Below are positions 83 through 13,474 of a stretch of DNA of 13,474 bases, piece by piece. The first letter of the stretch is position 1, and each line of letters starts with the position of its first letter. Position numbers and translations under genes: made by a program. The notes under the pieces are model-generated. The model was not told where the DNA came from. It was given only the letters and a program-made list of their open reading frames with translations, and ran no database searches. Source of the DNA: Nitrospinales bacterium. GTDB lineage: Bacteria > Nitrospinota > Nitrospinia > Nitrospinales > JAJDAT01. The DNA lies in NCBI GenBank assembly GCA_046757665.1, contig JBHHYO010000071.1, positions 1-13,474 on the forward strand, read 5' to 3'.

Positions 83-3000
83 ATGGTTGTCTCCCGCATT
101 TTCACGAAAAACCTCGAAGACCCCTTCCAAGCGTTTGATTTTATTGAGCAAACGTCGAAAATCACCAATGCCGACGGTTCCGTAGTCTCGGAAATCGACA
201 AGGTCATCGTACCGGATTTCTGGAGCCAGGTGGCGGTGGACATCATGGCGCAGAAATATTTCCGCAAGGCGGGGATTCCCCTCCGCCTCAGGAAGAAAAA
301 GGAGAAGAGCGTTCCCGCCTGGTTGTGCCCCTCGGAGCCCGATGAGCGGGCGTTGGAGATGTTGCCGGAGTCCGAACGCTACACCCGCGAAACCGACTCC
401 CGGCAGGTGTTTCGCCGTCTGGCGGGATGCTGGACTTACTGGGGCTGGAAGAACGGCTATTTTGACAACGAAACCGAGGCGAAAAATTATTACGACGAGA
501 TGTGTTACCAGTTGGCGGGGCAACTGGCGGCTCCCAACTCTCCGCAATGGTTCAACACCGGGTTGAACTGGGCGTACGGCATCGAGGGGCCGGCGCAGGG
601 CCATTATTTTTACAACCCGGCCACCTCGCAAGTGGAAAAATCCAAATCCGCGTACGAGCGGCCGCAACCGCACGCCTGCTTTATTCTTTCGGTGGCCGAC
701 GACCTGGTGAACGATCAAGGGATTATGGATCTCTGGCGGCAGGAAGCCCGGCTGTTCAAATACGGTTCCGGTAGCGGCACCAATTTTTCCAACCTTCGCG
801 GCGAGGGCGAACCCCTGTCGGGCGGCGGCAAATCCTCCGGGCTGATGAGTTTCCTCAAGATCGGCGACCGGGCCGCCGGCGCCATCAAGTCCGGCGGCAC
901 CACCCGCCGGGCCGCGAAAATGGTTACCCTCGATATCGACCATCCCGACGTTGAGGCTTTCATCGAATGGAAAGCCCGGGAGGAACGCAAAGTCGCGGTG
1001 CTGGTTGCCGGCAGTAAACTGTGCCGCCGCCATCTCAAGTCCGTTATCAAGACCTGCTGTAACGGCGAAACCGGAGAGATCCGGTTCGACGTCAAACAAA
1101 ACAAGAACCTCAGAAAAGCCATCCGCAAGGCCCTGGAAGCGGGCGTACCGGAAAACTACATCTTCCGCGTCATTCAGCTCGCCAAGCAAGGAGTTGAGGA
1201 TATCGAATTCGAGGAATACGACATCAACTGGAATTCGGAGGCCTATGCCACCGTTTCCGGGCAAAACTCCAACAACTCCGTGCGCCTGACCAACGAGTTC
1301 CTGCAAGCCGTCCGGGCCGGTGGCAACTGGAATTTAATCAACCGCATCGACGGCAAGGTCAACCGCTCCGTGCCGGCGGCGGAATTGTGGGACAAAATCA
1401 ATGAAGCGGCGTGGGCGAGCGCCGACCCGGGACTGCAGTTCGACACCACCATCAACGAGTGGCACACCTGCCCGGAAGGCGGCCGCATCCGCGCCTCCAA
1501 TCCCTGCTCGGAATACATGTTCCTCGACAATACCGCGTGCAACCTGGCGTCGCTGAACCTGATCAAGTTTTACGACTGGGAAAGCGGAGAGTTTGACACG
1601 GCCTCGTTCCGCCACGCCTGCCGCCTGTGGGCGCTGACGCTGGAGATTTCGGTCACCATGGCGCAATTCCCCAGCCAGGACATCGCCTTGAAAAGTTTTC
1701 AATATCGGACCCTGGGGCTGGGATATGCCAACCTGGGGGCTTTGCTGATGGTTTCCGGAATCCCCTACGACTCCGAGGAAGCCCGGGCCATCGCCGGCGC
1801 CCTGACGGCGATTCTCACCGGGGCGTCTTACGCCATGTCCGCGGAAATGGCCCGCGACCTGGGGCCCTTCTCCGAATACCGCAAAAACAAAACCCACATG
1901 ACGCGCGTTCTGCAAAACCACGAAAGAGCCGTCCGTAACTGCCCGGCCGGGGAATATGACGGATTGACCATTTTCCCGCGAGGCATCCAGCCGGAGCACT
2001 GCCCCGCCTACCTCCTGGAGGCCGCCAAAAAAGAATGGGCGGATGTCTTGCAGAAAGGCAAACAGTACGGGTTCCGCAATGCCCAGGTGACCTGCATCGC
2101 GCCGACGGGAACGATCGGCCTGCTGATGGATTGCGACACCACGGGAATCGAGCCCGATTACGCCCTGGTGAAATACAAGAAACTCGCCGGCGGCGGATAT
2201 TTCAAAATCATCAATCAATCCGTTCCCGCGGCCCTCAGGCGGCTGGGATATGCAGAAGATGAAATCAAGGCTATCGTGGATTATTGCGTGGGAACGGGCA
2301 GTCTGGAGAACGCGCCCCATATCAACCACCAGTCCCTGACGGAAAAAGGATTCACCGACGAAATCCTCGACAAGATAGAAGCCGAACTCCCCAAGGTCTT
2401 TGACATCAGCTTCGCTTTCAACAAGTACAGCATGGGCGAGGCGTTCTGCAAAAGCGTTTTGGGAATCCGGGAGGAACAACTGAATGCCTTCGACTTCAAC
2501 ATCCTGGAACATCTGGGCTTCACGCAGGAAGAAATCAAGGAAGCCAATGACGCGATTTGCGGCACCATGACGGTGGAAAACGCGCCGCATCTTAAAGAAG
2601 AGCATTATCCGGTATTCGACTGCGCCGGGAAATGCGGCAAATACGGTCAACGGTTCATCCGCCACGAGGCCCATATTCGCATGATGGCCGCGGCGCAACC
2701 GTTTCTCTCCGGCGCCATTTCCAAAACCATCAACATGACCAACGATTCCAGCATCGAGGACGTCAAGGCGGCCCACGCACTGTCCTGGGAGTTGATGCTG
2801 AAAGGCACCGCCATTTACCGCGACGGGTCAAAACTCAGCCAGCCCTTGAACAGCGTAGCCGGAGAGGTTTTCAGGCTGGTCGAAATGGAAGAAGAGGAAT
2901 CCATCCCCTTGAAACTGGCGGAAACGGTTGTTCGCCGCATGGGCGACCGCGCCCGGTTGCCCTACCGCAGGAAAGGCTATACGCAAAAAGCCATGATCGG

Positions 3001-3673
3001 CGGTCACAAGGTTTACCTGCGCACCGGGGAATACGCGGACGGACGCCTGGGAGAAATTTTCATCGATATGCACAAGGAAGGCGCCGCTTTCCGTAGCCTG
3101 ATGAACTGTTTTGCCATTGCCATCTCCCTGGGCCTGCAACATGGCGTGCCCCTGGAGGAGTTTGTCGACGCTTTCGTTTTCACCCGGTTCGAGCCCAACG
3201 GCATTGTGACCGGCAACAAGAGCATTACCATGTCCACATCCATGATCGACTACATCTTCAGGGAGCTTGCCATCAGTTATCTGGGGCGAAACGATTTGGC
3301 GCAAGTCACCAAAGAGGACCTTCGCGCCGACGCCTTGCAAAAGGAAACGGAGTTGAAGTCCGAGGAAATTATTTCCTCCGAATCCAGCGCGACTATTCCG
3401 GCGATTCCCGGCAACGCGCACGGCAACAACGGTAATGGCAATGGGAACGGCAACGGAAGCGCCGCCCGGCATACCGAGATTGGCGGCAATGGAAACACAT
3501 CCGTTCATTCGGCGGTGCAAACACAGATGCAAGCCGGGGTCATCGCGGCGCAAATCGCAAAACTCAAAGGCTACGAAGGCGACCCTTGCAACGAATGCGG
3601 CCAGCTCACCCTGGTACGCAACGGCACCTGCCTGAAATGCCAATCCTGCGGTGCCACTTCGGGTTGCTCGTAA
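83..3673 (+). CDS. nrdJ: Adenosylcobalamin-dependent (class II) ribonucleotide reductase, 1196 aa
   Basis: Motifs [40 protein letters not shown] (radical Cys475, codon 1505-1507), [15 protein letters not shown] and [10 protein letters not shown]. There is a TSCPD-like domain ([16 protein letters not shown]...FTRFEP), a C-terminal Zn-ribbon CNEC...CQSC and a terminal GCS. No ATP cone or intein is evident. ATG 83, TAA 3671-3673. Confidence 0.97.
3410..3496 (+). repeat. Gly-Asn low-complexity linker within NrdJ
   Basis: [17 protein letters not shown]...GGNGN lies between the TSCPD-like domain and the Zn-ribbon. It is an imperfect GGNAAY hexamer repeat in DNA. Confidence 0.75.
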
Positions 3674-3738: not shown

Positions 3739-4641
3739 TTAACTGCTCGGCGCCTGGACATCGAGTTTACCGCCGACAGGCTTGACGCAACGGACACCGA
3801 AAGCCGGATTTTTCAATTCCGGATCGACAAAGTTGCGAAAGGTAATGGTGGCGGTTTCAAGGCCGGAACTCCATCCACCACCTTTCACAATACGCCGGTT
3901 CGTTTCCTCTTTTTCGGAAACCTTGCCGGGAGGCCGTTCGACCCATTCCCAAACATTGCCGATCATGTCCAGCGCCCCGTACGGGGAAGCGCCCAAAGGG
4001 AAGGACCCCACCGGCGCCGCCCGGGCATAACCGTCGTCATCTCCGAGAATGTTAGCGCGGTCGGGAAGAAAATCGTTTCCCCACGGCAGGCGGCTGGAAG
4101 CTCCGCCCCCGGCGGCAGTCTCCCATTCCCGCTCGCCGGGCAGGCGTTTCCCCGCCCAAAGACAATAACGGCGGGCATGTTTCCAGTCGATCCCCATTGC
4201 CGGACACGCGGGACATTTCTTGCCGTCCGTGTAAGGTTTTTCGTCATAAGACGGATCAAACCGTTTGTACTGCTCCACCGTTATTTCCAGGCGGTCAATA
4301 TAAAACGCCGGAAGGCCGCGGGCCGGGTGGCTTTCATGGGCAAGCCGGTTCCGGGAATCCGGGTTGCCTCCCGCGCTCACCAGCACCATTTCGCTTTGGT
4401 CTTTGGGATGGATGATGGAAGGCAACAAAATTTTTCCATGCGAGAAAGAAAACCGCGAGGCAGGAGTGGCCCGCTTTTGCCGCAATCCCCGGGAGAGCCC
4501 GCGCGACGGGCCTTTCTCAATATTTTTTTTCTGTAACCCGTGAGACTTGGAACCCGACGCGCGTTTCTTGAGCTTGCCGGTTCCGCCGGCGCAGGCAAAA
4601 ATCATCAGGAAAAGCAGGAAAAACGCAAGAATTCGGATCAA
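3739..4641 (-). CDS. Formylglycine-generating enzyme (FGE-sulfatase/SUMF1) family lipoprotein, 300 aa
   Basis: Family motifs AFYIDRLEIT, YCLWAGKRLPGEREWETAA, PWG, APVGSFPLGASPYGALDMIGNVWEWV, KGGGW and FGVRC. The N-terminal hydrophobic stretch ends in lipobox IFA-C. The TTG start overlaps the TGA of the upstream TPR gene and has AGAGGA upstream. Confidence 0.88.
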   Translation of the reverse strand: MIRILAFFLLFLMIFACAGGTGKLKKRASGSKSHGLQKKNIEKGPSRGLSRGLRQKRATPASRFSFSHGKILLPSIIHPKDQSEMVLVSAGGNPDSRNRLAHESHPARGLPAFYIDRLEITVEQYKRFDPSYDEKPYTDGKKCPACPAMGIDWKHARRYCLWAGKRLPGEREWETAAGGGASSRLPWGNDFLPDRANILGDDDGYARAAPVGSFPLGASPYGALDMIGNVWEWVERPPGKVSEKEETNRRIVKGGGWSSGLETATITFRNFVDPELKNPAFGVRCVKPVGGKLDVQAPSS

Positions 4642-5060
4642 GAGTCCTCTCGTTCGCCGCGATTGACCAAATCGTCCAGCCTTTTCTTCAAAGACCGGTA
4701 TTTTCGATACCTTTTCTCCGCCTGTTCCATATCGCCCATCATCTCATAGCTGTAACCCAGGCTGTAATAAGCATCGACGTAGGTGGGATCAATCCGCAGG
4801 GCGGTGTTGAAAACTTCCACCGCCCGGTCATACATTTTCTTCTGGTTGTAAATGCCGCCCAACCCCACATAAGCTTGCGGATTCTTCTTGTCGGCTTCAA
4901 TGGCCATGAGAAAGGATTCCATGGCCTGGGCATAATTTCCGTCCCTACTGTTTGCAATTCCCTCTTGCACGTAATCGTTGCTGGTTTTTTCGACGCATTG
5001 CGGTAGAATCAAGAGGGTCGCCAGGGAAAGAAACAGCAGAATCCGTTGTGGCGGTCGCAT
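4638..5060 (-). CDS. Tetratricopeptide repeat protein, probably exported or lipid-anchored, 140 aa
   Basis: About three 34-aa TPR units (YVQEGIA..., AYVGLGGIY...ALRIDP, AYYSLGYSY...AEKRY). The N-terminal basic-hydrophobic signal ends in LPQC, a non-canonical lipobox. Confidence 0.88.
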   Translation of the reverse strand: MRPPQRILLFLSLATLLILPQCVEKTSNDYVQEGIANSRDGNYAQAMESFLMAIEADKKNPQAYVGLGGIYNQKKMYDRAVEVFNTALRIDPTYVDAYYSLGYSYEMMGDMEQAEKRYRKYRSLKKRLDDLVNRGEREDS

Positions 5061-5195
5061 TGGACGATTGCTTTCAGAGCAAAGATTGCAAAAACGGCTT
5101 CGCGGCTGACAAAAGCTCGTTTAACCAATTTCCAATATACCATCAAGCCGGGAATTACGCCAGCAGAGCAACCTGAGCGGCCTACGAAATTTCAA

Positions 5196-6497
5196 ATGGA
5201 CCACATCGTTATCTGGAGCGTCCTGGGAACGGCGCTGATTCTGTGCCTCGGCTATTCGATCCTCAAGAGTTTCCACCTGCTCAAACTCCAATGGTGGAAC
5301 CTTTCCCGCCTGAGCGACCTGAAAAAACGACATGAAGAATCCGCCATCGACCCCGCGGACAAAAAGGCGGTGGGACGGATCATCGACTGTTGCGAATCCT
5401 TGCGAGCCAAATGGATTTTAAGCGAATCCGATCTGCGGCTTTTGGAAAACACGCACCAGTTGGCAATGGACATTGCCGGCGCGTATCACCCCAGCGCGCC
5501 GGCGCCTCTCGCCGAAGCCCGAATCGGCCCGCTGTTGCGCGCATTTCTCGACCTGAAAAACCGCATAACCGGGGCGGCAGAGGCCAAGAGCCTTCAGGCT
5601 TTTACCCAGTTCCGCCTGCGGCACATCCTGTTTCTTGCCCAAGCGTGGGAAAAAAAGAAAGAATGGGAGTCTTCCGCCCCAGGAACTTTTCTAAAAAAAT
5701 ACCGGATTTATGTTCTCGTCCGATGGGCGTATTTTCTGGTTCGCTGGATGGACATCAGTTTTTGGTCCATGAAGATGCTGACTTATCTTCTTTACAATGT
5801 CGTCTTCAAGATTTTTTTGGTCCGCTGGTACTTGATGGTGGGCGAGTTGTCCATAACGGTTTACCGCGAGCGCGGCAAGGGAACGGATATCCAACAGGAA
5901 ATAATCTTTGAAGATTTTGAAGCCATGCCGGACCTCGAGGAAATCAAAATCCCCGATTTGCCGCAGGGAGTCCGAAACATTGTTGATGTTTCCCGGAAAC
6001 AGATTTTATTCAATCCCTGGGCTCTGGAATGGCAAAAGACCCGGGAAATCTACCGCCGGATGGTCGAGGATATCGCCCATTTCCACCACCCCAACGCCGA
6101 TCGGCCAATCTATGAAGCAAAACTTTCCAGTCTGATGGCCGCTTCGGCGCGGTTTGCCGGGAAAGTTTTTTCTTTGCAAAACCTTCCCTTGATCAACAAG
6201 GCGCTGGACCTCAAGGTATCGCATATTCTGTGGGTCAAGGATACCGCGGATATTTTCAAGGACAGCCAATTGGCGGCCTGGCTGAAAAAATATAAACTCC
6301 AGCAGGTGATCAAATATTCATCCCTGATTTTCAAAGCGGTCAAGAAAAGGCATCCCGGATTAATTTTCAAAGATTTTGCTTTTTCCCTGGTCAAGGAAGG
6401 CGGCAAGAGATGGGTCTATCTGTATCTTCACGAAAAAATCGCCGGCGAGGCGAACGCCACTTACCGTGAGGAATCCCGATTTTCTCCAATCACCTGA
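5196..6497 (+). CDS. Hypothetical membrane-anchored protein with an internal 200-aa duplication, 433 aa
   Basis: Long ORF filling the gap. ATG 5196 is preferred to TTG 5046, which overlaps the divergent TPR gene, and it places a TM segment (IVIWSVLGTALILCLGYSIL) at the N-terminus. The internal protein repeat supports coding status. Confidence 0.8.
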   Translation: MDHIVIWSVLGTALILCLGYSILKSFHLLKLQWWNLSRLSDLKKRHEESAIDPADKKAVGRIIDCCESLRAKWILSESDLRLLENTHQLAMDIAGAYHPSAPAPLAEARIGPLLRAFLDLKNRITGAAEAKSLQAFTQFRLRHILFLAQAWEKKKEWESSAPGTFLKKYRIYVLVRWAYFLVRWMDISFWSMKMLTYLLYNVVFKIFLVRWYLMVGELSITVYRERGKGTDIQQEIIFEDFEAMPDLEEIKIPDLPQGVRNIVDVSRKQILFNPWALEWQKTREIYRRMVEDIAHFHHPNADRPIYEAKLSSLMAASARFAGKVFSLQNLPLINKALDLKVSHILWVKDTADIFKDSQLAAWLKKYKLQQVIKYSSLIFKAVKKRHPGLIFKDFAFSLVKEGGKRWVYLYLHEKIAGEANATYREESRFSPIT

Positions 6498-6903
6498 GCC
6501 TGCCCTTGGGGTCGGCGCCTTCAAGGAATCCGTTTAAGTGAGCGACTTTTTCCGGTTCCCCGTAATGGTAAATTCGCACCACTTTTTTGATGAGTTCCTT
6601 TAGCCTTTGGTCTTGACCACTGGATGAATCATCTTGATACGCTATGGATTGATCATTGGATGCGGACTTTCCCCTCAGCATCGTCCCTACACCCGTCAGC
6701 AACCAAATGATATCGATGTCGGTATGAAAATATAACTTTGAAAGCGTATCGGCAGAGGGCAGGGATTTGTCATTTTCCAATTCAGACAAAGAGCTTGCCG
6801 CCACATTGATTTTTTCCGACAAATCCATCAGTTTCATTCGCGATGATTTTCTCCAGGTTCGTAACCGTTGCCCTGCCGTAAAATGTCCTTCTTTAGTAAT
6901 CAT
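6490..6903 (-). CDS. XRE/Cro-CI family helix-turn-helix transcriptional regulator, 137 aa
   Basis: GQRLRTWRKSSRMKLMDLSEKINVAASSLSELENDKSLPSADTLSKL...DIIWLLTG is a typical HTH_3 domain with the WLLTG cap. GGAGAGGTG lies upstream. There is no S24 peptidase domain. Its 3' end overlaps the convergent gene by 8 nt. Confidence 0.9.
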   Translation of the reverse strand: MITKEGHFTAGQRLRTWRKSSRMKLMDLSEKINVAASSLSELENDKSLPSADTLSKLYFHTDIDIIWLLTGVGTMLRGKSASNDQSIAYQDDSSSGQDQRLKELIKKVVRIYHYGEPEKVAHLNGFLEGADPKGRLR

Positions 6904-7950: not shown

Positions 7951-9204
7951 TCAGTGTGGTTGTTCCCCGTCATGTTCCAGACCGCGCACCCGGTTGCGTA
8001 CGGCCCAAAGCAGACCCAGGCCGGGCAGGGCTCCGAGAAAAGTGATAAAAAAGAACGCCGCCCAACCGACTTCCTCGACCAGAAAACCGGAAGGTGGGCC
8101 GACAAAAACCCGCCCCAGGGACGCCAGCGCGGACAACAGCGCAAATTGGGTCGCGGTGAATCGATGATTACACAAGGCCATGAGAAACGCCACGAAGGCG
8201 GCGGTTCCCATTCCGCCGGACAAGTTCTCGAAAGCAACGGCGAAGATCATCATGCCATAGCTCTTGCCCCACCAAGCCAGCACCATAAAGGAAAGGTTTG
8301 AAAGCGCCTGCAAGATACCGTAAAGCATCAGGGACCGGTACAAGCCCAGATTTGCCATGAGCGTACCGCCCGCCAGGGCGCCGATGATGGTGGCGGCCAG
8401 CCCCATGCCTTTGTTGATGGCCCCTACTTCGCCCACGGAAAATCCTGCGCCGCGGATCAAAAACGCCGTCGTCAAACTGCCGGCAAACGCATCTCCCAGT
8501 TTGTACAGGACAATGAGCGCCAGCATGGCCCAGGCTCCGGAACGCGAAAAAAAGTCTTTCAGAGGTCCCCGCACGGCTTCGTCCAGGCTACGCGGCGGCT
8601 GGGCCGGTTCTTCCGGTTCCGGACCCAACAGGGTTCCCAAAATGCCCACAAGCATAAAACCAGCCATCAGCAAATATGTCAAACGCCAGCTCATGAACTG
8701 TGACAGGATAAGAGCCAGCGCACCGGAAACCAGCATGGCAATACGGTAGCCGGTAACCGAAACCGCGGCTCCCAGGCCTCGTTCCCTCTCCCGCAACACA
8801 TCGGTGCGATAAGCATCAAAGACAATATCCTGGGACGCGGAGGAAAACGCCACACCCAGGGCCAGTGCCGCCAGAGCCCAGGGCGCACGGTCTGGCGAGG
8901 ACAGCCCCATGGCCACAATAAGGACCGTCAGGACAGCCTGGGTGATTAACAACCATCCCCGGCGCCTGCCCAGCAAGGCAGGCACATAACGGTCCATCAG
9001 CGGCGCCCATAAAAATTTCAAGGTATAGGGCAAACCCACCAGGGTGAAAATACCAATGGTCCGCAGATCGACCCCCGCAACCGTCATCCAGGCTTGCAAG
9101 GTGCCGCCCGTCAACGCCAAAGGCAAACCCGAGGAAAACCCCAGGAGCACCATGACACCGATTCGCCGGTTGGCAAGGCTTTGAAAAGTGGCGGCAAAAG
9201 ACAC
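7951..9204 (-). CDS. ampG: AmpG family muropeptide MFS transporter, 417 aa
   Basis: LLGFSSGLPLALTGGTLQAWM, LKFLWAPLMDRY...GRRRGWLLITQ, FSSASQDIVFDAYR, GYRIAML, LYKLGDAFA and FTATQFALLSAL closely follow E. coli AmpG as I recall it. GTG start with GGGGAGAG upstream. Confidence 0.95.
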   Translation of the reverse strand: MSFAATFQSLANRRIGVMVLLGFSSGLPLALTGGTLQAWMTVAGVDLRTIGIFTLVGLPYTLKFLWAPLMDRYVPALLGRRRGWLLITQAVLTVLIVAMGLSSPDRAPWALAALALGVAFSSASQDIVFDAYRTDVLRERERGLGAAVSVTGYRIAMLVSGALALILSQFMSWRLTYLLMAGFMLVGILGTLLGPEPEEPAQPPRSLDEAVRGPLKDFFSRSGAWAMLALIVLYKLGDAFAGSLTTAFLIRGAGFSVGEVGAINKGMGLAATIIGALAGGTLMANLGLYRSLMLYGILQALSNLSFMVLAWWGKSYGMMIFAVAFENLSGGMGTAAFVAFLMALCNHRFTATQFALLSALASLGRVFVGPPSGFLVEEVGWAAFFFITFLGALPGLGLLWAVRNRVRGLEHDGEQPH

Positions 9205-9580
9205 TTGTTTTACTCTCCCCGCCCTGCTTGTTTCAATCTCCGAACCCGGTTTCGCATTGTCTCTCTGAAAATTCGGTTGCTCAAATGCCCGGTTTCCTGT
9301 TCCGGTATTTTTTATTTTGCCAAAAAATCGCCCAAACCGTTCTGTTTGTTATATTATAAAGAGGGGGTTTATAGCTAATTTTTTTAAGAATTAAAATTTT
9401 TCAAGGAAATCCGTTGTAAAGAACTTGTTAAATAGCCCCGGCAGGCCGATATTATATTTACCAGCCGGAGGAAGCCGACCTTGCGGGCTGACAAGCGTCA
9501 AAAATTCGCTGGGTGGCGCGGTTTTTTCGACTGATTTTAATGAAAAACTCACGTTATCGGTAAAAATCCGGTTAGTTATA

Positions 9581-9653: not shown

Positions 9654-9688
9654 GATTTCTTTGCAAAGCTGGGAGTCGGACGATCATC

Positions 9689-11305
9689 ATGCTCAATGGG
9701 GAAAACATTCAATTGGTCAAGGAACAGCTCAGAATCAGGACCCGCGAGCTGAGAAAGCAGGAAGAAGAAAAAATAAAAATCAGCGAAAAGGTGAAGAGTG
9801 TTCTGGCTTTGAACCAGAAGAAAATGCAGGAATTAAAGACCCTTCTTGAAGAAAAAAACGAGGCGCTGGCAACCGCCCAGGCGCGCATGGAAACCATTGA
9901 GGTCTCCGATACAGGCGACGACGCGGGCACCGGCACCCGAGTCAAAGAAGTCGTAGTGCAAGACCCTGCCCTGCTGGCGGAATTAAAGGAACTCCGGGAA
10001 AAAGACCGGCAACTGGCCTTGCAGGTCAATGCCGCATCGACGGAAAAAAGCCGCCTGGACAAGGAAAAAAAGTTGCTCCTCAAAGAAATCAAACGGATGC
10101 GGAAAGACCCCGTCACCACCGAGAACCTGAAAAAACAAATCAAAAAGCTCAAGGGAGAATTGGAGGATCTGCAAACCCGTTCCGGAGAATCCGCCGCCAA
10201 TCTGGAACAGCTCCTCAAGGAAAAGGATGAGATCATCGCTTCCTACGAAAAGATGCTTTACGGTGAAACCGAAGCCGGTCAGGAAGGGATGCTTCCGTCA
10301 GAAATCATCGCCGACCTGAAAACCGAACTGAAGGAACGGCTGGAAGAAAAGAAGCAGATGGTGCAACAAATCGAAGAGTTGACGGAAATGGCGCAAGACC
10401 TGGAAGTCCGGCTTTCCATGGCCAAGGAAACCGACGCGGCGGCCGCTCTCGCCGGCTCCGGTGGGAGAAGCGAGGAAAGCCGGAGCGCCCAAACCGCCGA
10501 ATTCTCCGCCGGCCTGGAAGCTTTCCTCATCACTTACAGCGACATGATCACCCTGATTCTCGTTATTTTCGTGCTCATGTATTCGGTTTCCAAACTCGAC
10601 GAAGAAAGGCTGGCCCAGGCGTTGTCCTCTTTCCAATCCAAGGAATGGCGCGTCGAACACCTGAATGTGCGGCTTAGCAAAAAGGAATTTTCCATGCTGG
10701 AGCGCGTCCGTGAGCTGGTCAAGGACAACATCGATCCCGAGATGTTGAAACGGGGCGACACCCGGACCATCTTGAAACGCCTGCCCAACGAAGAATTGTT
10801 TCTTCCCGGCGAAGCTACTTTTGTGGACGGCGCAGAAAAAACCATTCGCGGCGCTATTCAGGAAGATTTGAAAGACGGCGTAAAACAGGTCATCGTCGAG
10901 GGCCATACGGACGACGTGGATATCAAGTCGGCCAAATTCCCTTCCAATTGGGAGCTGTCATCGGCGCGGGCCGCAAGCGTGGCACGCTTCATCATCGAAA
11001 AAATGCGTTTCCCGGCCAAGTTCGTGATGGTTGCCGGGTTTGGCAAATACCGCCCGCTCAAACCAAATACCAGCGACGAAAACCGCGCGATCAACCGCCG
11101 GGTGGAAATCAAGATTTTAAAAGACGTCAAAGTTCTGGAAGCGGAAGAGAAAGCCAGAAAAGCCAAAGCCCAGGCGGAGGGGAAAACGACGCCAAAAACG
11201 GCAACCGGCAAGAGCCCGGGCAAGACAGGACCGCCCGCAAGCTCTCCGCCAAAAAGCTCCTACGCTCCCCGCCCGACAGGCAGGAGTTCCGGCGCTTCCA
11301 AGTGA
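9689..11305 (+). CDS. MotB/OmpA-family protein with long N-terminal coiled coil, 538 aa
   Basis: Residues ~1-245 are a K/E/L-rich coiled coil. The MotB-type TM FLITYSDMITLILVIFVLMYSVS carries the ion-binding Asp285 (10541-10543). The OmpA-like peptidoglycan-binding domain has VEGHTDD...FPSNWELSSARAASV...GFGKYRP...NRRVEI. The tail is K/P/S/T-rich. GGGAG lies upstream. Confidence 0.9.
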   Translation: MLNGENIQLVKEQLRIRTRELRKQEEEKIKISEKVKSVLALNQKKMQELKTLLEEKNEALATAQARMETIEVSDTGDDAGTGTRVKEVVVQDPALLAELKELREKDRQLALQVNAASTEKSRLDKEKKLLLKEIKRMRKDPVTTENLKKQIKKLKGELEDLQTRSGESAANLEQLLKEKDEIIASYEKMLYGETEAGQEGMLPSEIIADLKTELKERLEEKKQMVQQIEELTEMAQDLEVRLSMAKETDAAAALAGSGGRSEESRSAQTAEFSAGLEAFLITYSDMITLILVIFVLMYSVSKLDEERLAQALSSFQSKEWRVEHLNVRLSKKEFSMLERVRELVKDNIDPEMLKRGDTRTILKRLPNEELFLPGEATFVDGAEKTIRGAIQEDLKDGVKQVIVEGHTDDVDIKSAKFPSNWELSSARAASVARFIIEKMRFPAKFVMVAGFGKYRPLKPNTSDENRAINRRVEIKILKDVKVLEAEEKARKAKAQAEGKTTPKTATGKSPGKTGPPASSPPKSSYAPRPTGRSSGASK

Positions 11306-11414: not shown

Positions 11415-13472
11415 ATGACCGACGACAAACAATCCATCTCCGAAATCCTGTTCCATAACCGTCAGGCTTTTTTGCGCTTCAACCAGTTTAAAATCAGCCA
11501 GACGCTGAAAACCCTTTCACAAATCGACCGGCTGATCTATATCGCCATCCCCCGCCTTCTGCATGTCAACCACAAGGATTTGCCGGGATACATCAACGAC
11601 AAGGTTCCATGCGGGATTTACAACTATGTCCTGAACCGGGAAACGGAAGAGGTATTGGAAAAACTGTTTCCCGGAGCGATTATTCGAAAAACCAATAACC
11701 GCCCGGCCATCATTCAAACCATGCTGTTAATGGGTAGCGTGGGATCGATCGCGCAAACCAAAAAATCGGACCTGGACTACACCCTGCTGATTCACAAAAA
11801 CGATTACTCCGCCGAAGAGATGGAACTTTTTTCTAAAAAGTTGCGGCTCATCGAAAATTGGACCTGGGACAACTACCACCTGGAAACCCATTTCTTCGTC
11901 AATGATATTGATGAAGTGAGAGAAAACAACTTCGGCGAAAGCGATAGCGAAAGCACCGGCACGGCCATGGCAAAACTCCTGAAAGAGGAAATGCTCCGCA
12001 CCCTGGTCATCGTCGCCGGGAAAATCCCCTTCTGGGCCATTGTCCCGGTGGGCACCAATGATGACTACTACGCCGAACTGCAAAAACAGGTGGTCGAACA
12101 TCGAACCTTGTTGGACCGTGAAGAGTTCGTCGACATGGGAAACGTAGACGACATTTCCCCCGGCGAATTTTTCGGAGGCTCCATTTGGGCATTGATCAAG
12201 GCGTTTGGTTCGCCTTTCAAAACCCTCATGAAAATGGGAGTGCTCGAGGAATACATGTTTAACAACTCCAAGTCCAACTTGTTATGCCATGAAATCAAGA
12301 GAGGCGTGTTTTCCAACAACAAGCCCTTCCTGGAAATCGATCCCTATCTCACGATGTTCGAACGGGTGCAGAAATTTTTTATAGATACCAAAACGCAAAA
12401 CGAAGTTGACGCCCTGCGAACGTCTTTTTATTTGAAAGTGGGAACCCAGATCAACGCGGAGGAGCTGGAGTATGGCTCTTCCAGAAACCAGAAGAAAAAC
12501 ACTTTGATCCAAATGATCAAGGGATGGGGGTGGCCGCCTTCCAAAATCGAGGATCTCAATGACTATAAAAACTGGCCCATGAACAAGAAAGTAGCCCTGG
12601 GAAACCGCATCAACAAGATTCTCATGGCCTCTTACAAAAACATCTCCGATAAAAACAAGAGCCTGGTCTCCAGCGAAAGCCTGATCAACGAAAAAGACAC
12701 CAACCTCCTGGGCCGCAAGTTGTTCAGTTATTACCACAAAGCCAATTACAAGGTCGATAACGTCGGCGGCTTCGTGGACGGCGCCCTTGGAGAAAAGGAA
12801 CTGACCATTTTCTATGATCAATTCAACGTCCGGGCCAAGGGCGTTTGGTACCTGATCCGCGGAAAGACCCTGGCCAACCGGGACCAACTGGACACCGATT
12901 TAATCATTAAAAAAGCCTCCACATTGGAATTTCTTCTGGCTTTCGCAACGTTTAATCAACTATACAAGAAGGACACCTCGATCCTCCTGAGAGCCGACCA
13001 AATGTCCTTCAATGATAAAGACGTTTACAACGCCCTGGAAAAGCTGTCTTCCTTTATTTCACAAGTCAACATCGCCCATATTTCCAATGAAGACCTGATG
13101 GCCGGCGCCCAGGTCAAACAGCTTTTCATCTTCGCCGATTTCGGCAATCCCTTTCCCAAGGACCTCATGATGGCCGATATCCGCGAATGCAAGACCGCCA
13201 AGGAATATTCCGCTTTTATCAATAAACGGCTGGAGCGCCTCAAAAGTACAACCTACGTTTATTTGAATACCTGGGGAGAACTTTTCTGCAAAACCTTTTC
13301 CGGATTGGAAAGTATGGCCCGGTGCACCAGGGAACTTTCCGAAAAAGTGAGCCTCCGGTTTCTGGAGGAACAAAATTTCCTTAAGGTTTTTATTCCCACG
13401 GGCCGAAAAGAGGACCTGGAATTACCCTGGATGAACAGTTATATTATGTCAGTAGTGTCCGGGGAAAATTAA
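11415..13472 (+). CDS. cyaA: Class I adenylate cyclase (CyaA-like, pol-beta nucleotidyltransferase fold), 685 aa
   Basis: Motifs IPRLLHVNHKDLPGY...VPCGI, MGSVGSIAQTKKSDLD (GS...SDxD), ETHFF, LLKEEMLRT...AGKIPFW, WALIKAFGSPFKTLMK, IDPY, RTSFYLKVG, LGRKL and YLNTWGELF occur in the order known for class I cyclases. ATG 11415 is preferred to TTG 11340. TAA 13470-13472. Confidence 0.88.
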   Translation: MTDDKQSISEILFHNRQAFLRFNQFKISQTLKTLSQIDRLIYIAIPRLLHVNHKDLPGYINDKVPCGIYNYVLNRETEEVLEKLFPGAIIRKTNNRPAIIQTMLLMGSVGSIAQTKKSDLDYTLLIHKNDYSAEEMELFSKKLRLIENWTWDNYHLETHFFVNDIDEVRENNFGESDSESTGTAMAKLLKEEMLRTLVIVAGKIPFWAIVPVGTNDDYYAELQKQVVEHRTLLDREEFVDMGNVDDISPGEFFGGSIWALIKAFGSPFKTLMKMGVLEEYMFNNSKSNLLCHEIKRGVFSNNKPFLEIDPYLTMFERVQKFFIDTKTQNEVDALRTSFYLKVGTQINAEELEYGSSRNQKKNTLIQMIKGWGWPPSKIEDLNDYKNWPMNKKVALGNRINKILMASYKNISDKNKSLVSSESLINEKDTNLLGRKLFSYYHKANYKVDNVGGFVDGALGEKELTIFYDQFNVRAKGVWYLIRGKTLANRDQLDTDLIIKKASTLEFLLAFATFNQLYKKDTSILLRADQMSFNDKDVYNALEKLSSFISQVNIAHISNEDLMAGAQVKQLFIFADFGNPFPKDLMMADIRECKTAKEYSAFINKRLERLKSTTYVYLNTWGELFCKTFSGLESMARCTRELSEKVSLRFLEEQNFLKVFIPTGRKEDLELPWMNSYIMSVVSGEN

Positions 13473-13474
13473 AA

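What the first reader, a model, noticed from the sequence alone, without database searches (positions are those of the whole stretch)
9689..11305. Solo MotB-like protein with a ~275-aa cytoplasmic coiled-coil extension
Seen: an intact MotB-type TM with Asp285 and a MotB-type OmpA domain (SNWELSSARA), preceded by ~278 residues, mostly coiled coil, with no signal peptide and no motA/tolQ/zorA-like neighbour in the window. Known: flagellar MotB has only ~30 cytoplasmic residues and is normally encoded after motA. In Zorya the long cytoplasmic tail is on ZorA, not ZorB. T6SS TssL-OmpA has a globular DotU domain instead. Inference: a variant stator B subunit that borrows MotA from another locus and projects a long rod into the cytoplasm, as a tether, a mechanosensor output or a non-flagellar motor.
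Basis: partly seen in the sequence, partly recalled or inferred. Interest (0 to 1): 0.72.

Follow-up and report, generated by a model that had tools for sequence, protein, structure and literature searches.

The report
Long-tailed MotB in adenylate-cyclase stator operon
This is a real flagellar-motor-type MotB protein with an unusual long coiled-coil tail inside the cell, but it is not a loner: its MotA partner lies two genes downstream, just past the end of the contig, in a conserved operon that also encodes a cAMP-making enzyme.

Summary
The ORF 9689-11305 (538 aa) is real. It has one TM helix with Asp285, a MotB plug and an OmpA-like domain, preceded by about 265 cytoplasmic residues of segmented coiled coil.

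The extension is translated. It is conserved from residue 1 in Nitrospinota orthologs, with invariant motifs.

"Solo" is an assembly artefact. The contig ends 2 bp after the next gene, a class I adenylate cyclase (cyaA). In relatives the order is motB-long, cyaA, motA, pentapeptide-repeat gene: 34 of 34 loci with enough flank. In this genome that motA and pentapeptide gene sit at the end of contig C1.

This motA/motB pair is the only one found in the assembly (97.6% complete), which also encodes FliG, FlhA and flagellins. MotA keeps the Arg/Glu pair that contacts FliG in PomA.

Most relatives also carry a canonical motAB and a second long-MotB pair followed by a PilZ gene.

Best reading: a flagellar-type stator B subunit whose two N-terminal tails hang below the MotA ring as a static stalk, probably a regulatory or docking platform linked to cyclic-nucleotide signalling. 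The tail's function is inferred only.

It is a new variant of a known kind. My literature searches found no description of it.

The parts
9689..11305 (+). motB-long: complete ORF of 538 aa. The ATG at 9689 is preceded by GGGAG at 9671-9675.
   Evidence: Orthologs align from residue 1.
9689..10477 (+). Cytoplasmic N-terminal extension, residues 1-263. It has five helical segments with heptad periodicity, separated by low-confidence linkers at 74-92, 192-202 and 250-263.
   Evidence: AF2 secondary structure. Heptad test, 0 of 200 shuffles reach the observed value. No Pfam or PDB sequence match. Fold search matches only the periplasmic domain.
10220..10318 (+). Most conserved motif of the extension, residues 178-210: EKDxxIxxYEKMLYG...EGMLPSEIIxxL. 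It spans the break between helices 4 and 5. P203, I206, I207 and L210 are also invariant in the second long paralog.
   Evidence: Alignments A1 and A2.
10478..10594 (+). Juxtamembrane helix plus the single TM helix, residues 264-302. The codon of the invariant Asp285 is 10541-10543.
   Evidence: Hydropathy, AF2 helix 264-302, invariant D285.
10511..10639 (+). Pfam MotB_plug match, residues 275-317 (TM plus plug helix).
   Evidence: Aligns to the TM/plug of Clostridium sporogenes MotB, 8ucs/6ysf.
10799..11098 (+). OmpA-like peptidoglycan-binding domain, residues 371-470, including SNWELSSARA.
   Evidence: Pfam. PDB sequence hits to MotB, MotS and PomB. Foldseek hits to MotS, PomB and H. pylori MotB periplasmic domains.
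11129..11302 (+). Periplasmic C-terminal tail, residues 481-538. It is rich in Lys, Pro, Ser and Thr and is not conserved among orthologs.
   Evidence: Alignment A1. pLDDT below 50 for residues 500-538.
11415..13472 (+). cyaA, class I adenylate cyclase, complete. The ORF opens at TTG 11340; conservation starts at Met 11415, giving 685 aa. Stop codon at 13470-13472.
   Evidence: Pfam Adenyl_cycl_N and Adenylate_cycl. NCBIfam class I adenylate cyclase, 442 bits, below the equivalog cut-off. Stop codon seen. Found downstream of motB-long in 38 of 42 ortholog loci; the other 4 are cut by a contig end.
13441..13470 (+). Left arm of an imperfect inverted repeat. The right arm lies in the first ~120 nt of the reverse complement of contig C1, upstream of motA. 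This is the probable cause of the assembly break.
   Evidence: Contigs from two public DNA runs stop at the same place, and a 31-mer unitig over 13448-13474 has about twice the depth of the flanking contig.
9445..9452 (+). GCCGATAT, a sigma-28-type -10-like element 244 nt upstream of the start codon. No correctly spaced -35 element was found, so this is a weak candidate only.
   Evidence: Relatives carry CCGATA[AT] upstream in 24 of 40 loci.
7951..9204 (-). Divergently transcribed AmpG-family muropeptide MFS transporter, a conserved neighbour.
   Evidence: NCBIfam TIGR00901, 507.7 bits, cut-off 350. Synteny.

Best explanation
The gene encodes the B subunit of a flagellar-type MotA5-MotB2 ion-driven stator unit of a Nitrospinales bacterium.

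Its partner MotA (273 aa) is encoded two genes downstream, in a conserved cluster of motB-long, class I adenylate cyclase, motA and a pentapeptide-repeat protein. In this assembly the cluster is split over contigs C71 and C1.

Proposed working of the motor, following established stator mechanics:
- Ions pass Asp285 in the MotB TM helix.
- The MotA ring turns around the MotB dimer.
- The dimer is fixed to peptidoglycan by the OmpA-like domain once the plug is released.
- MotA Arg111 and Glu119 push on FliG.

In this genome it is the only stator found, so it most likely drives the flagellum.

The new part is the roughly 265-residue N-terminal extension. Two copies leave the TM helices on the rotation axis. 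I infer that they thread the MotA cytoplasmic ring as a short juxtamembrane helix plus a flexible Gly/Ser linker (residues 250-263). Below the ring they would form a segmented, probably parallel, two-stranded coiled coil that stays static while MotA rotates.

Its most likely role is a docking or regulatory stalk beside the C-ring. It would tie stator assembly or activity to cyclic-nucleotide signalling: cAMP through the co-encoded cyclase here, and c-di-GMP through the PilZ protein in the paralogous operon.

Shown: the domain anatomy, the conservation, the operon, and the distribution across genomes. Inferred: the 5:2 assembly, the flagellar role, the path and dimeric state of the tail, and any link to cAMP.
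For: 1. MotB core: MotB_plug and OmpA domains score above Pfam cut-offs. The best NCBIfam hits are flagellar MotS, MotD and MotB. The best PDB hits are MotB, MotS and PomB.

2. Own MotA.
- C1:112837-113658 aligns over its full length to flagellar MotA/PomA structures, E 3.5e-44 to 3e-19. NCBIfam names it PomA or MotP.
- PomA R88 and E96 align to Arg111 and Glu119, and both conserved prolines are kept. The role of these residues is recalled from the literature.

3. Gene order motB-long, cyaA, motA, pentapeptide-repeat gene.
- It is seen in G012, G077 and G023.
- Of 42 ortholog loci, 38 have cyaA downstream; the other 4 are cut by a contig end. Of those 38, 34 have motA next; the other 4 are cut. 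All 34 then have the pentapeptide gene.
- Gaps are 10-35 bp or overlaps.
- The flanks of the C71 end and the C1 end match this order gene for gene.

4. This genome.
- It has 1 MotB_plug gene and 1 MotA-type gene beside TolQ and 2 ExbB.
- tblastn with a canonical MotA/MotB and with paralog-2 proteins finds nothing else.
- FliG, 3 flagellins plus an FlgL-like protein, and FlhA are present.

5. Distribution in 120 Nitrospinota genomes.
- 72 have a long-MotB hit at E<=1e-40. Of these, 68 have FliG and 71 have class I cyaA.
- The high-quality genomes without FliG (G039, G052, G053, G071-G074) have no MotB_plug, no long MotB and no cyaA.

6. Genus g20: three FliG-positive genomes, 83-88% complete, carry only the two long-type pairs and no roughly 270-aa MotB.

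7. A sigma-28 -10-like CCGATA[AT] lies within 400 nt upstream of motB-long in 24 of 40 loci, against a background of 0.1 per 410 nt. In 20 loci it sits at -26 to -32. This genome's flagellin gene has TAAAGTTT-N11-TCCGATAA.

8. The extension is conserved, helical and heptad-periodic. It is homologous in the second long paralog, which follows its own motA and precedes a PilZ gene in 9 of 9 other loci.
Against: - The assembly has 160 contigs and is 97.6% complete, so a canonical motAB could be unassembled. Most relatives do have a canonical motAB, so the long form may be accessory there.
- The protein scores far below the NCBIfam equivalog cut-offs for MotS, MotD and MotB: 127.8 bits against a cut-off of 264. 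The same holds for MotA as PomA: 199.5 against 341.
- PomA K89 and E97 are Ser in this MotA.
- The order B, cyclase, A is not the flagellar norm.
- cyaA is lost together with the flagellum in the same lineages. Co-distribution therefore cannot separate a flagellar role from a cAMP-signalling role.
- cyaA also occurs without the long MotB: in genus g10 and in families f5-f9.
- In the window itself the sigma-28-like -10 has no well-spaced -35. The loci counted are related, not independent, and 9 of the listed motif sites (about -366 to -382) lie upstream of the intergenic region, probably inside the ampG coding sequence.
- Nothing shows that a two-stranded rod can pass or sit under a turning MotA ring.
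- No expression data were found.
Confidence: 0.55

Rival explanations
1. A non-flagellar signalling motor. MotB-long and MotA3 form an ion-driven 5:2 unit that does not drive the flagellum. It would act as an envelope, ion-flux or load sensor whose cytoplasmic MotB stalk controls the co-encoded class I adenylate cyclase, possibly with the pentapeptide-repeat protein. That would resemble the logic of Zorya, but with the tail on the B subunit.
For: - cyaA and a pentapeptide-repeat gene are embedded between and behind the stator genes in 34 of 34 loci with enough flank, with very short gaps.
- Most relatives already have a canonical motAB for swimming.
- Both proteins fall below the flagellar equivalog cut-offs.
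- The paralogous long MotB is likewise tied to a second-messenger protein, PilZ.
Against: - In this genome and in genus g20 no canonical stator was found although flagellar genes are present.
- MotA3 keeps the full flagellar-type cytoplasmic domain and the Arg/Glu pair.
- PilZ proteins next to stator genes are classically flagellar brakes (recalled).
- The homologous extension exists in the paralog without any cyclase, so the tail cannot be cyclase-specific.
- cyaA occurs without the long MotB in other Nitrospinota.
Confidence: 0.27
2. A peptidoglycan-anchored cytoplasmic scaffold without motor activity. The TM and OmpA part only anchors a long coiled coil that organises a polar or flagellar landmark, similar in role to FimV or HubP. 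MotA would be incidental.
For: - The extension is a long coiled coil with conserved short motifs, typical of scaffolds.
- Structural neighbours in the Atlas are generic coiled-coil proteins only.
Against: - Asp285, the TM helix, the plug and the juxtamembrane AEFxxGLExFL motif are invariant or nearly so in 28 of 28 orthologs. That is the signature of a working ion channel partner.
- A dedicated motA is co-encoded in all loci with enough flank.
Confidence: 0.08
3. Mis-called start or fusion artefact. The real protein would start near the TM helix (Met244 at 10418 or later), and the upstream frame would be non-coding or a separate gene.
For: - The Shine-Dalgarno-like GGGAG lies 13 nt from the ATG, which is rather far.
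- No RNA run was available.
Against: - Residues 1-249 are conserved from the first residues in orthologs at 42-85% identity, with invariant positions.
- The frame is open in 42 ortholog loci from GTDB genomes, and most of the phylum hits have no internal stops.
- The homologous extension is present in the paralog.
Confidence: 0.02

Closest known systems
Flagellar stator MotAB / PomAB / MotPS (MotA5B2 ion-driven rotary units)
   Same: - The B subunit has one N-in TM helix with the conserved Asp, a plug helix and an OmpA-like peptidoglycan-binding domain.
- The A subunit aligns over its full length with solved MotA and PomA structures, including the torque-interface Arg/Glu pair and both prolines.
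- It is found in genomes with flagellar genes.
   Different: - There are about 265 extra cytoplasmic residues of coiled coil before the TM helix.
- The gene order is motB, cyaA, motA, pentapeptide-repeat gene, not motA followed by motB.
- MotA has a conserved extra N-terminal tail of 23 aa.
- Scores are below the NCBIfam equivalog cut-offs.
Zorya ZorAB anti-phage system (paper PMC11946911, seen only as a search listing with the start of its abstract; other details recalled)
   Same: - A MotAB-type 5:2 membrane unit with a long cytoplasmic coiled-coil tail on the rotation axis, co-encoded with soluble cytoplasmic proteins.
- ZorB models hit the TM-to-OmpA part at E 2e-17.
   Different: - The tail is on the B subunit (static part), not on the A subunit.
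- MotA3 is 273 aa and has no ZorA hit. No ZorC, ZorD or ZorE-like genes are present.
- The cluster sits in a fixed core-genome context across a whole order, not in a defence island.
PilZ-type c-di-GMP brakes acting on stators (YcgR, FlgZ, MotI; recalled from the literature)
   Same: Second-messenger components are genetically and functionally tied to stator units. The paralogous long MotB operon carries a PilZ gene directly after motB.
   Different: Here the linked gene is a cAMP synthase, not a c-di-GMP receptor. No binding was shown.
Flagellar surface sensing feeding into cAMP in Pseudomonas aeruginosa (PMC6855561, seen only as a search listing with the start of its abstract)
   Same: A conceptual link between flagellar or stator activity and cAMP signalling.
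   Different: In that system the components are not co-encoded with the stator, and MotB has no cytoplasmic extension (recalled). No homology is claimed.
T6SS TssL long form / DotU with an OmpA domain
   Same: One TM helix plus a C-terminal OmpA-like domain, with a cytoplasmic N-terminal part. TIGR03350 matches residues 341-476.
   Different: There is no DotU domain. The cytoplasmic part is coiled coil. A MotB plug and the conserved Asp are present.

Membership tests
MotB/PomB-type stator B subunit | A single N-in transmembrane helix carrying the conserved ion-binding Asp. | tested here: met
   One hydrophobic segment at about 278-300. Asp285 is invariant in 28 of 28 orthologs and aligns with the TM helix of solved MotB.
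MotB/PomB-type stator B subunit | A plug helix directly after the TM helix (Pfam MotB_plug). | tested here: met
   PF13677, E 3.6e-13, 49.3 bits against a cut-off of 24.
MotB/PomB-type stator B subunit | A C-terminal OmpA-like peptidoglycan-binding domain. | tested here: met
   PF00691, 51.6 bits against a cut-off of 27.2. Foldseek probability 1.00 to MotS, PomB and MotB periplasmic domains.
MotB/PomB-type stator B subunit | A short cytoplasmic N-terminus of tens of residues. | tested here: not met
   About 277 residues precede the TM helix. In the representative scan, canonical MotB proteins of 220-300 aa match only residues ~265-480.
MotB/PomB-type stator B subunit | Encoded directly downstream of its motA. 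| tested here: not met
   The order is motB-long, cyaA, motA. A dedicated motA is nevertheless present in the same cluster.
MotB/PomB-type stator B subunit | Reaches a curated NCBIfam equivalog cut-off for MotS, MotD or MotB. | tested here: not met
   The best hit is MotS at 127.8 bits against a cut-off of 264.
MotB/PomB-type stator B subunit | A partner A subunit with the flagellar-type cytoplasmic torque domain and its charged residues. | tested here: met
   MotA3 aligns to residues 1-240 of PomA and 5-254 of C. sporogenes MotA. PomA R88 aligns to Arg111 and E96 to Glu119, while K89 and E97 are Ser. The residue roles are recalled from the literature.
MotB/PomB-type stator B subunit | Assembles as MotA5B2 and drives flagellar rotation. 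| not testable with these tools
   A 5:2 model exceeds the size limit of the complex tool.
Zorya ZorB | A partner ZorA with a long C-terminal coiled-coil tail, plus ZorC/ZorD (or ZorE, ZorF/ZorG) effectors. | tested here: not met
   MotA3 is 273 aa with no PADLOC hit. CyaA and the pentapeptide-repeat protein have no PADLOC hit.
T6SS TssL (DotU) long form | A cytoplasmic DotU domain before the TM helix. | tested here: not met
   TssL and DotU models match only residues 289-488 and 341-476, i.e. the TM-to-OmpA part. No Pfam family is found in residues 1-270.
PRK09039-type coiled-coil peptidoglycan-binding proteins (NCBIfam NF006542-NF006546) | A match over the coiled-coil part as well as the OmpA domain. 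| tested here: not met
   Only residues 389-476 match, at 82 bits against a cut-off of 388.

The most novel reading that the evidence does not exclude
A flagellar stator unit that is also a signalling device. The static MotB axle would protrude through the turning MotA ring into the cytoplasm. There it would hold or gate the co-encoded class I adenylate cyclase, with the pentapeptide-repeat protein as a partner. Stator engagement, ion flow or load would then be converted directly into cAMP. A sister system would do the same with c-di-GMP through PilZ. That would be a hard-wired mechanosensor built into the motor.
Probability: 0.15. Interest if true: 0.85.

Novelty: new variant of a known kind. 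Interest (0 to 1): 0.62.

Why it matters
- **An unmodelled stator architecture.** Structural models of MotAB and PomAB treat the cytoplasmic end of MotB as a short, dispensable stub. A conserved tail of about 265 residues on the rotation axis raises two questions: how does a static rod coexist with a rotating MotA ring beside the C-ring, and what does it reach?
- **A mirror image of Zorya.** In Zorya the tail is on the A subunit; here it is on the B subunit.
- **A direct genetic link to second messengers.** Both long-MotB operons of the Nitrospinales carry a cyclic-nucleotide gene: a class I adenylate cyclase in one and PilZ in the other. This offers a testable link between stator units and second-messenger signalling, a connection so far inferred only indirectly in surface sensing.
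- **A practical lesson.** The "orphan" status came from a contig break at an inverted repeat. Solo stator genes in draft genomes should be checked against relatives.

Tried and rejected
- Complex prediction with full CyaA (685 aa, alignment A3) and MotB-long residues 1-275 (alignment A1) gave the verdict "no answer", score 0.00 in both runs; the controls were not run. This is not evidence either way.
- The look-up of sequencing runs listed no RNA holder. It listed two DNA runs that may be the source of this DNA. Laying their contigs showed only that they stop at the same place as the window.
- The protein-atlas search on residues 1-270 gave no usable hit by features and only generic coiled-coil neighbours by structure, TM 0.32-0.43.
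- Foldseek against the PDB matched only the periplasmic domain.
- phmmer against PDB sequences gave nothing for residues 1-260.
- The listing of cluster members on ten long-form representatives gave no organism names.
- A strict sigma-28 pattern (TAAA, 10-17 nt, then [GC]CCGATA[AT]) matched 0 of 40 relatives' upstream regions. It matched only a mis-spaced site in the window. The looser -10 count is reported with its caveats.
- Zorya, TssL/DotU and PRK09039-type readings were rejected on domain content.
- A start near Met 10418 was rejected on conservation.
- Literature searches found no description of a MotB with a long cytoplasmic coiled-coil extension, nor of a motB-cyaA-motA operon:
  - searches returned papers on other matters;
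  - searches returned nothing;
  - one search returned only the Zorya paper;
  - in the MotAB evolution paper PMC12505986 I read only the passages returned by a term search. 'Nitrospin', 'coiled' and 'adenylate' occur 0 times. Its supplements were not seen and may list such proteins.
Full report
**1. The observation**

The window is one whole contig (C71, 13,474 bp) of a 2.97-Mb draft genome with 160 contigs, 97.6% complete.

ORF 9689-11305 on the + strand gives 538 aa.
- Pfam places MotB_plug at residues 275-317 and OmpA at 371-470, both above their cut-offs. Nothing reaches a cut-off in residues 1-270.
- Hydropathy shows one TM segment at about 278-300 and no N-terminal hydrophobic segment. 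With the MotB topology, residues 1 to about 277 are therefore cytoplasmic.
- AlphaFold2 on a 28-sequence alignment (mean pLDDT 67, pTM 0.31) predicts helices at 2-73, 93-138, 144-163, 169-191 and 203-249. A low-confidence linker at 250-263 follows, then a helix at 264-302 that contains the TM segment.
- A simple heptad a/d contrast is 0.403, against 0.255 +/- 0.026 in 200 shuffles; none reaches the observed value.
- The extension's composition is 16% Glu, 13% Leu and 12% Lys.

**2. The extension is real protein**
- The word-indexed protein search returned 410 hits. Most of the 120 listed are 498-579 aa (five shorter, 353-461 aa), carry the same two domains and cover 84-100% of the query (three shorter ones 65-70%). 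Where named, the names are Nitrospina or Nitrospinae 'OmpA family protein' or 'chemotaxis protein MotB'.
- In an alignment of 28 orthologs at 42-85% identity, the N-terminus aligns from residue 1. It has invariant K11, E12, L102, E126, E133, K179, D180, P203 and L210, and a conserved motif KEKDxLIxxYEKMLYG...EGMLPSEII.
- The exhaustive scan of 1.84 billion representatives found 45 proteins at E<=1e-30. Long forms that align from about residue 3 fall into an ortholog group and a second group at 27-33% identity. Ordinary MotB proteins of 220-300 aa match only residues ~265-480.
- A start at Met244 (nt 10418) is therefore rejected.

**3. It is not solo**

cyaA is complete. Its stop codon is at 13470-13472 and the contig ends 2 bp later.

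In relatives a MotA-family gene follows cyaA:
- The coordinates in G012, G077, G023 and G019 show it.
- tblastn on 14-kb regions of G012, G077 and G023 gives this order: response regulator, ampG (-), motB-long (+), cyaA (+), motA (+), pentapeptide-repeat gene (+), FGE-like gene (-).

The last three genes are the orthologs of the genes at the end of this genome's contig C1, at 76%, 65% and 62% identity to G012. motA on C1 starts 129 bp from the contig end.

A scan of GTDB genomes with the extension alone gave 50 loci, all titled Nitrospinota.
- 42 are orthologs.
- 38 of the 42 have cyaA next; the other 4 are cut by a contig end.
- 34 of those 38 then have motA; the other 4 are cut.
- 34 of those 34 then have the pentapeptide-repeat gene.
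- Gaps are 10-35 bp between cyaA and motA. motA and the pentapeptide gene overlap or lie less than 25 bp apart.

The two contig ends share an imperfect inverted repeat. Contigs of two public DNA runs, which may be the source of this DNA, stop at the same point. A 31-mer unitig over 13448-13474 has about twice the neighbouring depth. That is what a repeat breaking a de Bruijn graph looks like.

**4. What else the genome holds**

PF01618 finds four loci:
- TolQ with TolR, TolA and TolB;
- ExbB with ExbD;
- a second ExbB with two ExbD and TonB;
- the PomA/MotP-like MotA on C1.

I named the Tol and Exb neighbours by eye from gene order and the first residues. The MotA was named by NCBIfam.

MotB_plug finds only the target. 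tblastn with a relative's canonical MotA and MotB, and with the second long pair, finds only these two genes. FliG, FlhA, three flagellins and an FlgL-like gene are present. In this assembly the target is therefore the only stator B subunit of a flagellated organism.

**5. The family picture**

In 120 Nitrospinota genomes:

| Feature | Genomes with it |
|---|---|
| MotB_plug | 97 |
| FliG | 95 |
| Class I cyaA | 93 |
| Long-MotB hit at E<=1e-40 | 72 |

- All 72 long-MotB genomes are in families f1-f4 of the window's order. None of the 18 genomes in f5-f9 has one.
- Of the 72, 68 have FliG. The exceptions are G009, G083 and G084 (61-84% complete) and G032.
- Of the 72, 71 have cyaA.
- The high-quality genomes without FliG (G039, G052, G053, G071-G074) lack all three.

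Complete relatives typically carry three stator pairs:
1. canonical motA followed by motB of about 273 aa;
2. motA2 followed by a second long motB of about 490-540 aa, whose N-terminus is homologous to the target's;
3. the target's cluster.

The second long pair is followed by a PilZ-domain gene and a conserved unknown gene. The PilZ gene is present in 9 of 9 other loci and the unknown gene in 8 of the 9; the ninth ends inside the PilZ gene.

In genus g20, three FliG-positive genomes (83-88% complete) have only the two long-type pairs.

**6. The MotA partner**
- It aligns end to end with solved flagellar MotA and PomA structures, E 3.5e-44 to 3e-19.
- Against Vibrio PomA, R88 aligns to Arg111 and E96 to Glu119, while K89 and E97 are Ser. 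The two prolines are kept. That these residues contact FliG is recalled from the literature, not tested here.
- It carries 23 extra N-terminal residues (MATAVK...), conserved in orthologs.
- It has no PADLOC (ZorA) hit. The target hits ZorB models only at 2e-17, weaker than flagellar MotS and MotD at about 1e-35 to 1e-37.

**7. Promoter hint**

This genome's flagellin gene on C96 is preceded by TAAAGTTT-N11-TCCGATAA. That is the sigma-28 consensus as I recall it.

CCGATA[AT] occurs within 400 nt upstream of motB-long in 24 of 40 ortholog loci, against a background of 0.1 per 410 nt.
- In 20 loci it lies at -26 to -32. In most of these a TAACCTTT-like element lies 12 nt upstream.
- Nine further sites near -366 to -382 lie upstream of the intergenic region, probably inside the ampG coding sequence, and should be ignored.

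The loci are related, so this is a conserved motif, not 20 independent events. In the window the element (GCCGATAT, 9445-9452) has no well-spaced -35.

**8. Mechanism**

Established stator mechanics, combined with the conserved Asp285, plug, OmpA domain and a dedicated flagellar-type MotA, make a MotA5B2 ion-driven unit the best reading.

The tail must start at the cytoplasmic mouth of the MotA ring, on the rotation axis. The 14-residue Gly/Ser-rich linker varies in length among orthologs, and a short juxtamembrane helix carries the invariant AEFxxGLExFL motif. Together they fit two thin chains threading the ring, with the coiled coil forming below it. This is inference.

About 210 helical residues would give up to roughly 30 nm if extended. 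That is my arithmetic, at 0.15 nm per residue.

The homologous tail also occurs in the paralog that has no cyclase. The tail's partner is therefore probably common to both systems: itself, MotA, C-ring proteins or another shared factor. The operon partners (CyaA and the pentapeptide-repeat protein here, PilZ there) point to second-messenger control. The single complex prediction I could run, CyaA with the tail, gave no answer.

**9. Novelty**

My seven literature searches found no description of a MotB with a long cytoplasmic coiled coil, nor of a motB-cyaA-motA operon. The passages I read of the 2025 MotAB evolution paper do not mention one either.

It is a new variant of a known kind. The core is an ordinary stator. 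The tail, the gene order and the cyclase linkage are new. The function of the tail remains inferred.

Noticed in passing
L084:5166-8662; also L041/L093 (G077) and L094 (G023): A second long-MotB system in Nitrospinales: motA2, motB-long2 (about 490-540 aa, with an N-terminal extension homologous to the target's), a 155-aa PilZ-domain protein and a conserved 208-aa unknown. The PilZ gene is present in 9 of 9 other loci and the unknown gene in 8 of the 9; the ninth ends inside the PilZ gene. This system is absent from the window's genome.
   Followed up: partly
window 13441-13474 and the first ~120 nt of the reverse complement of contig C1: An imperfect inverted repeat of about 30 nt spans the two contig ends between cyaA and motA. 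Public contigs break at the same place, and a 31-mer unitig there has about twice the depth. It could also be a regulatory hairpin between cyaA and motA. Relatives have only 10-35 bp there.
   Followed up: partly
G000 contig C1:111977-112837 (-), L005:7978-8838: A 286-aa cytoplasmic pentapeptide-repeat protein whose start overlaps the stop of motA3. It is conserved in 34 of 34 loci. Its function is unknown, and no PADLOC hit was found.
   Followed up: partly
G000 contig C1:113590-113658 (MotA3 residues 1-23): MotA3 has a conserved extra N-terminal cytoplasmic tail of 23 residues (MATAVK...). The canonical MotA, MotA2 and the solved MotA/PomA structures lack it.
   Followed up: no
window 5046-6497 (+): A 483-aa ORF with no Pfam or NCBIfam family. 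It is a hydrophobic-looking protein lying between a TPR gene and an HTH gene.
   Followed up: no
window 83-3673 (+): A class II (B12-dependent) ribonucleotide reductase of 1,196 aa. It has a TSCPD domain, a Gly-Asn repeat (GNNGNGNGNGNG) and a Cys-rich C-terminal end.
   Followed up: no
G000 contig C96, about 125 nt upstream of the flagellin gene at 6850: A textbook sigma-28-type promoter, TAAAGTTT-N11-TCCGATAA. It shows that this consensus applies in this organism.
   Followed up: partly
window 3739-4641 (-) and C1:111110-111961 (+): FGE-sulfatase-family paralogs flank the region on both sides. The one on C1 is a conserved neighbour of the cluster in relatives.
   Followed up: no
phylum scan: Flagellar genes, all MotB genes and the class I adenylate cyclase are missing together from several complete or nearly complete Nitrospinaceae genomes (G052, G053, G071-G074). 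This suggests a joint loss of a motility and cAMP module.
   Followed up: partly
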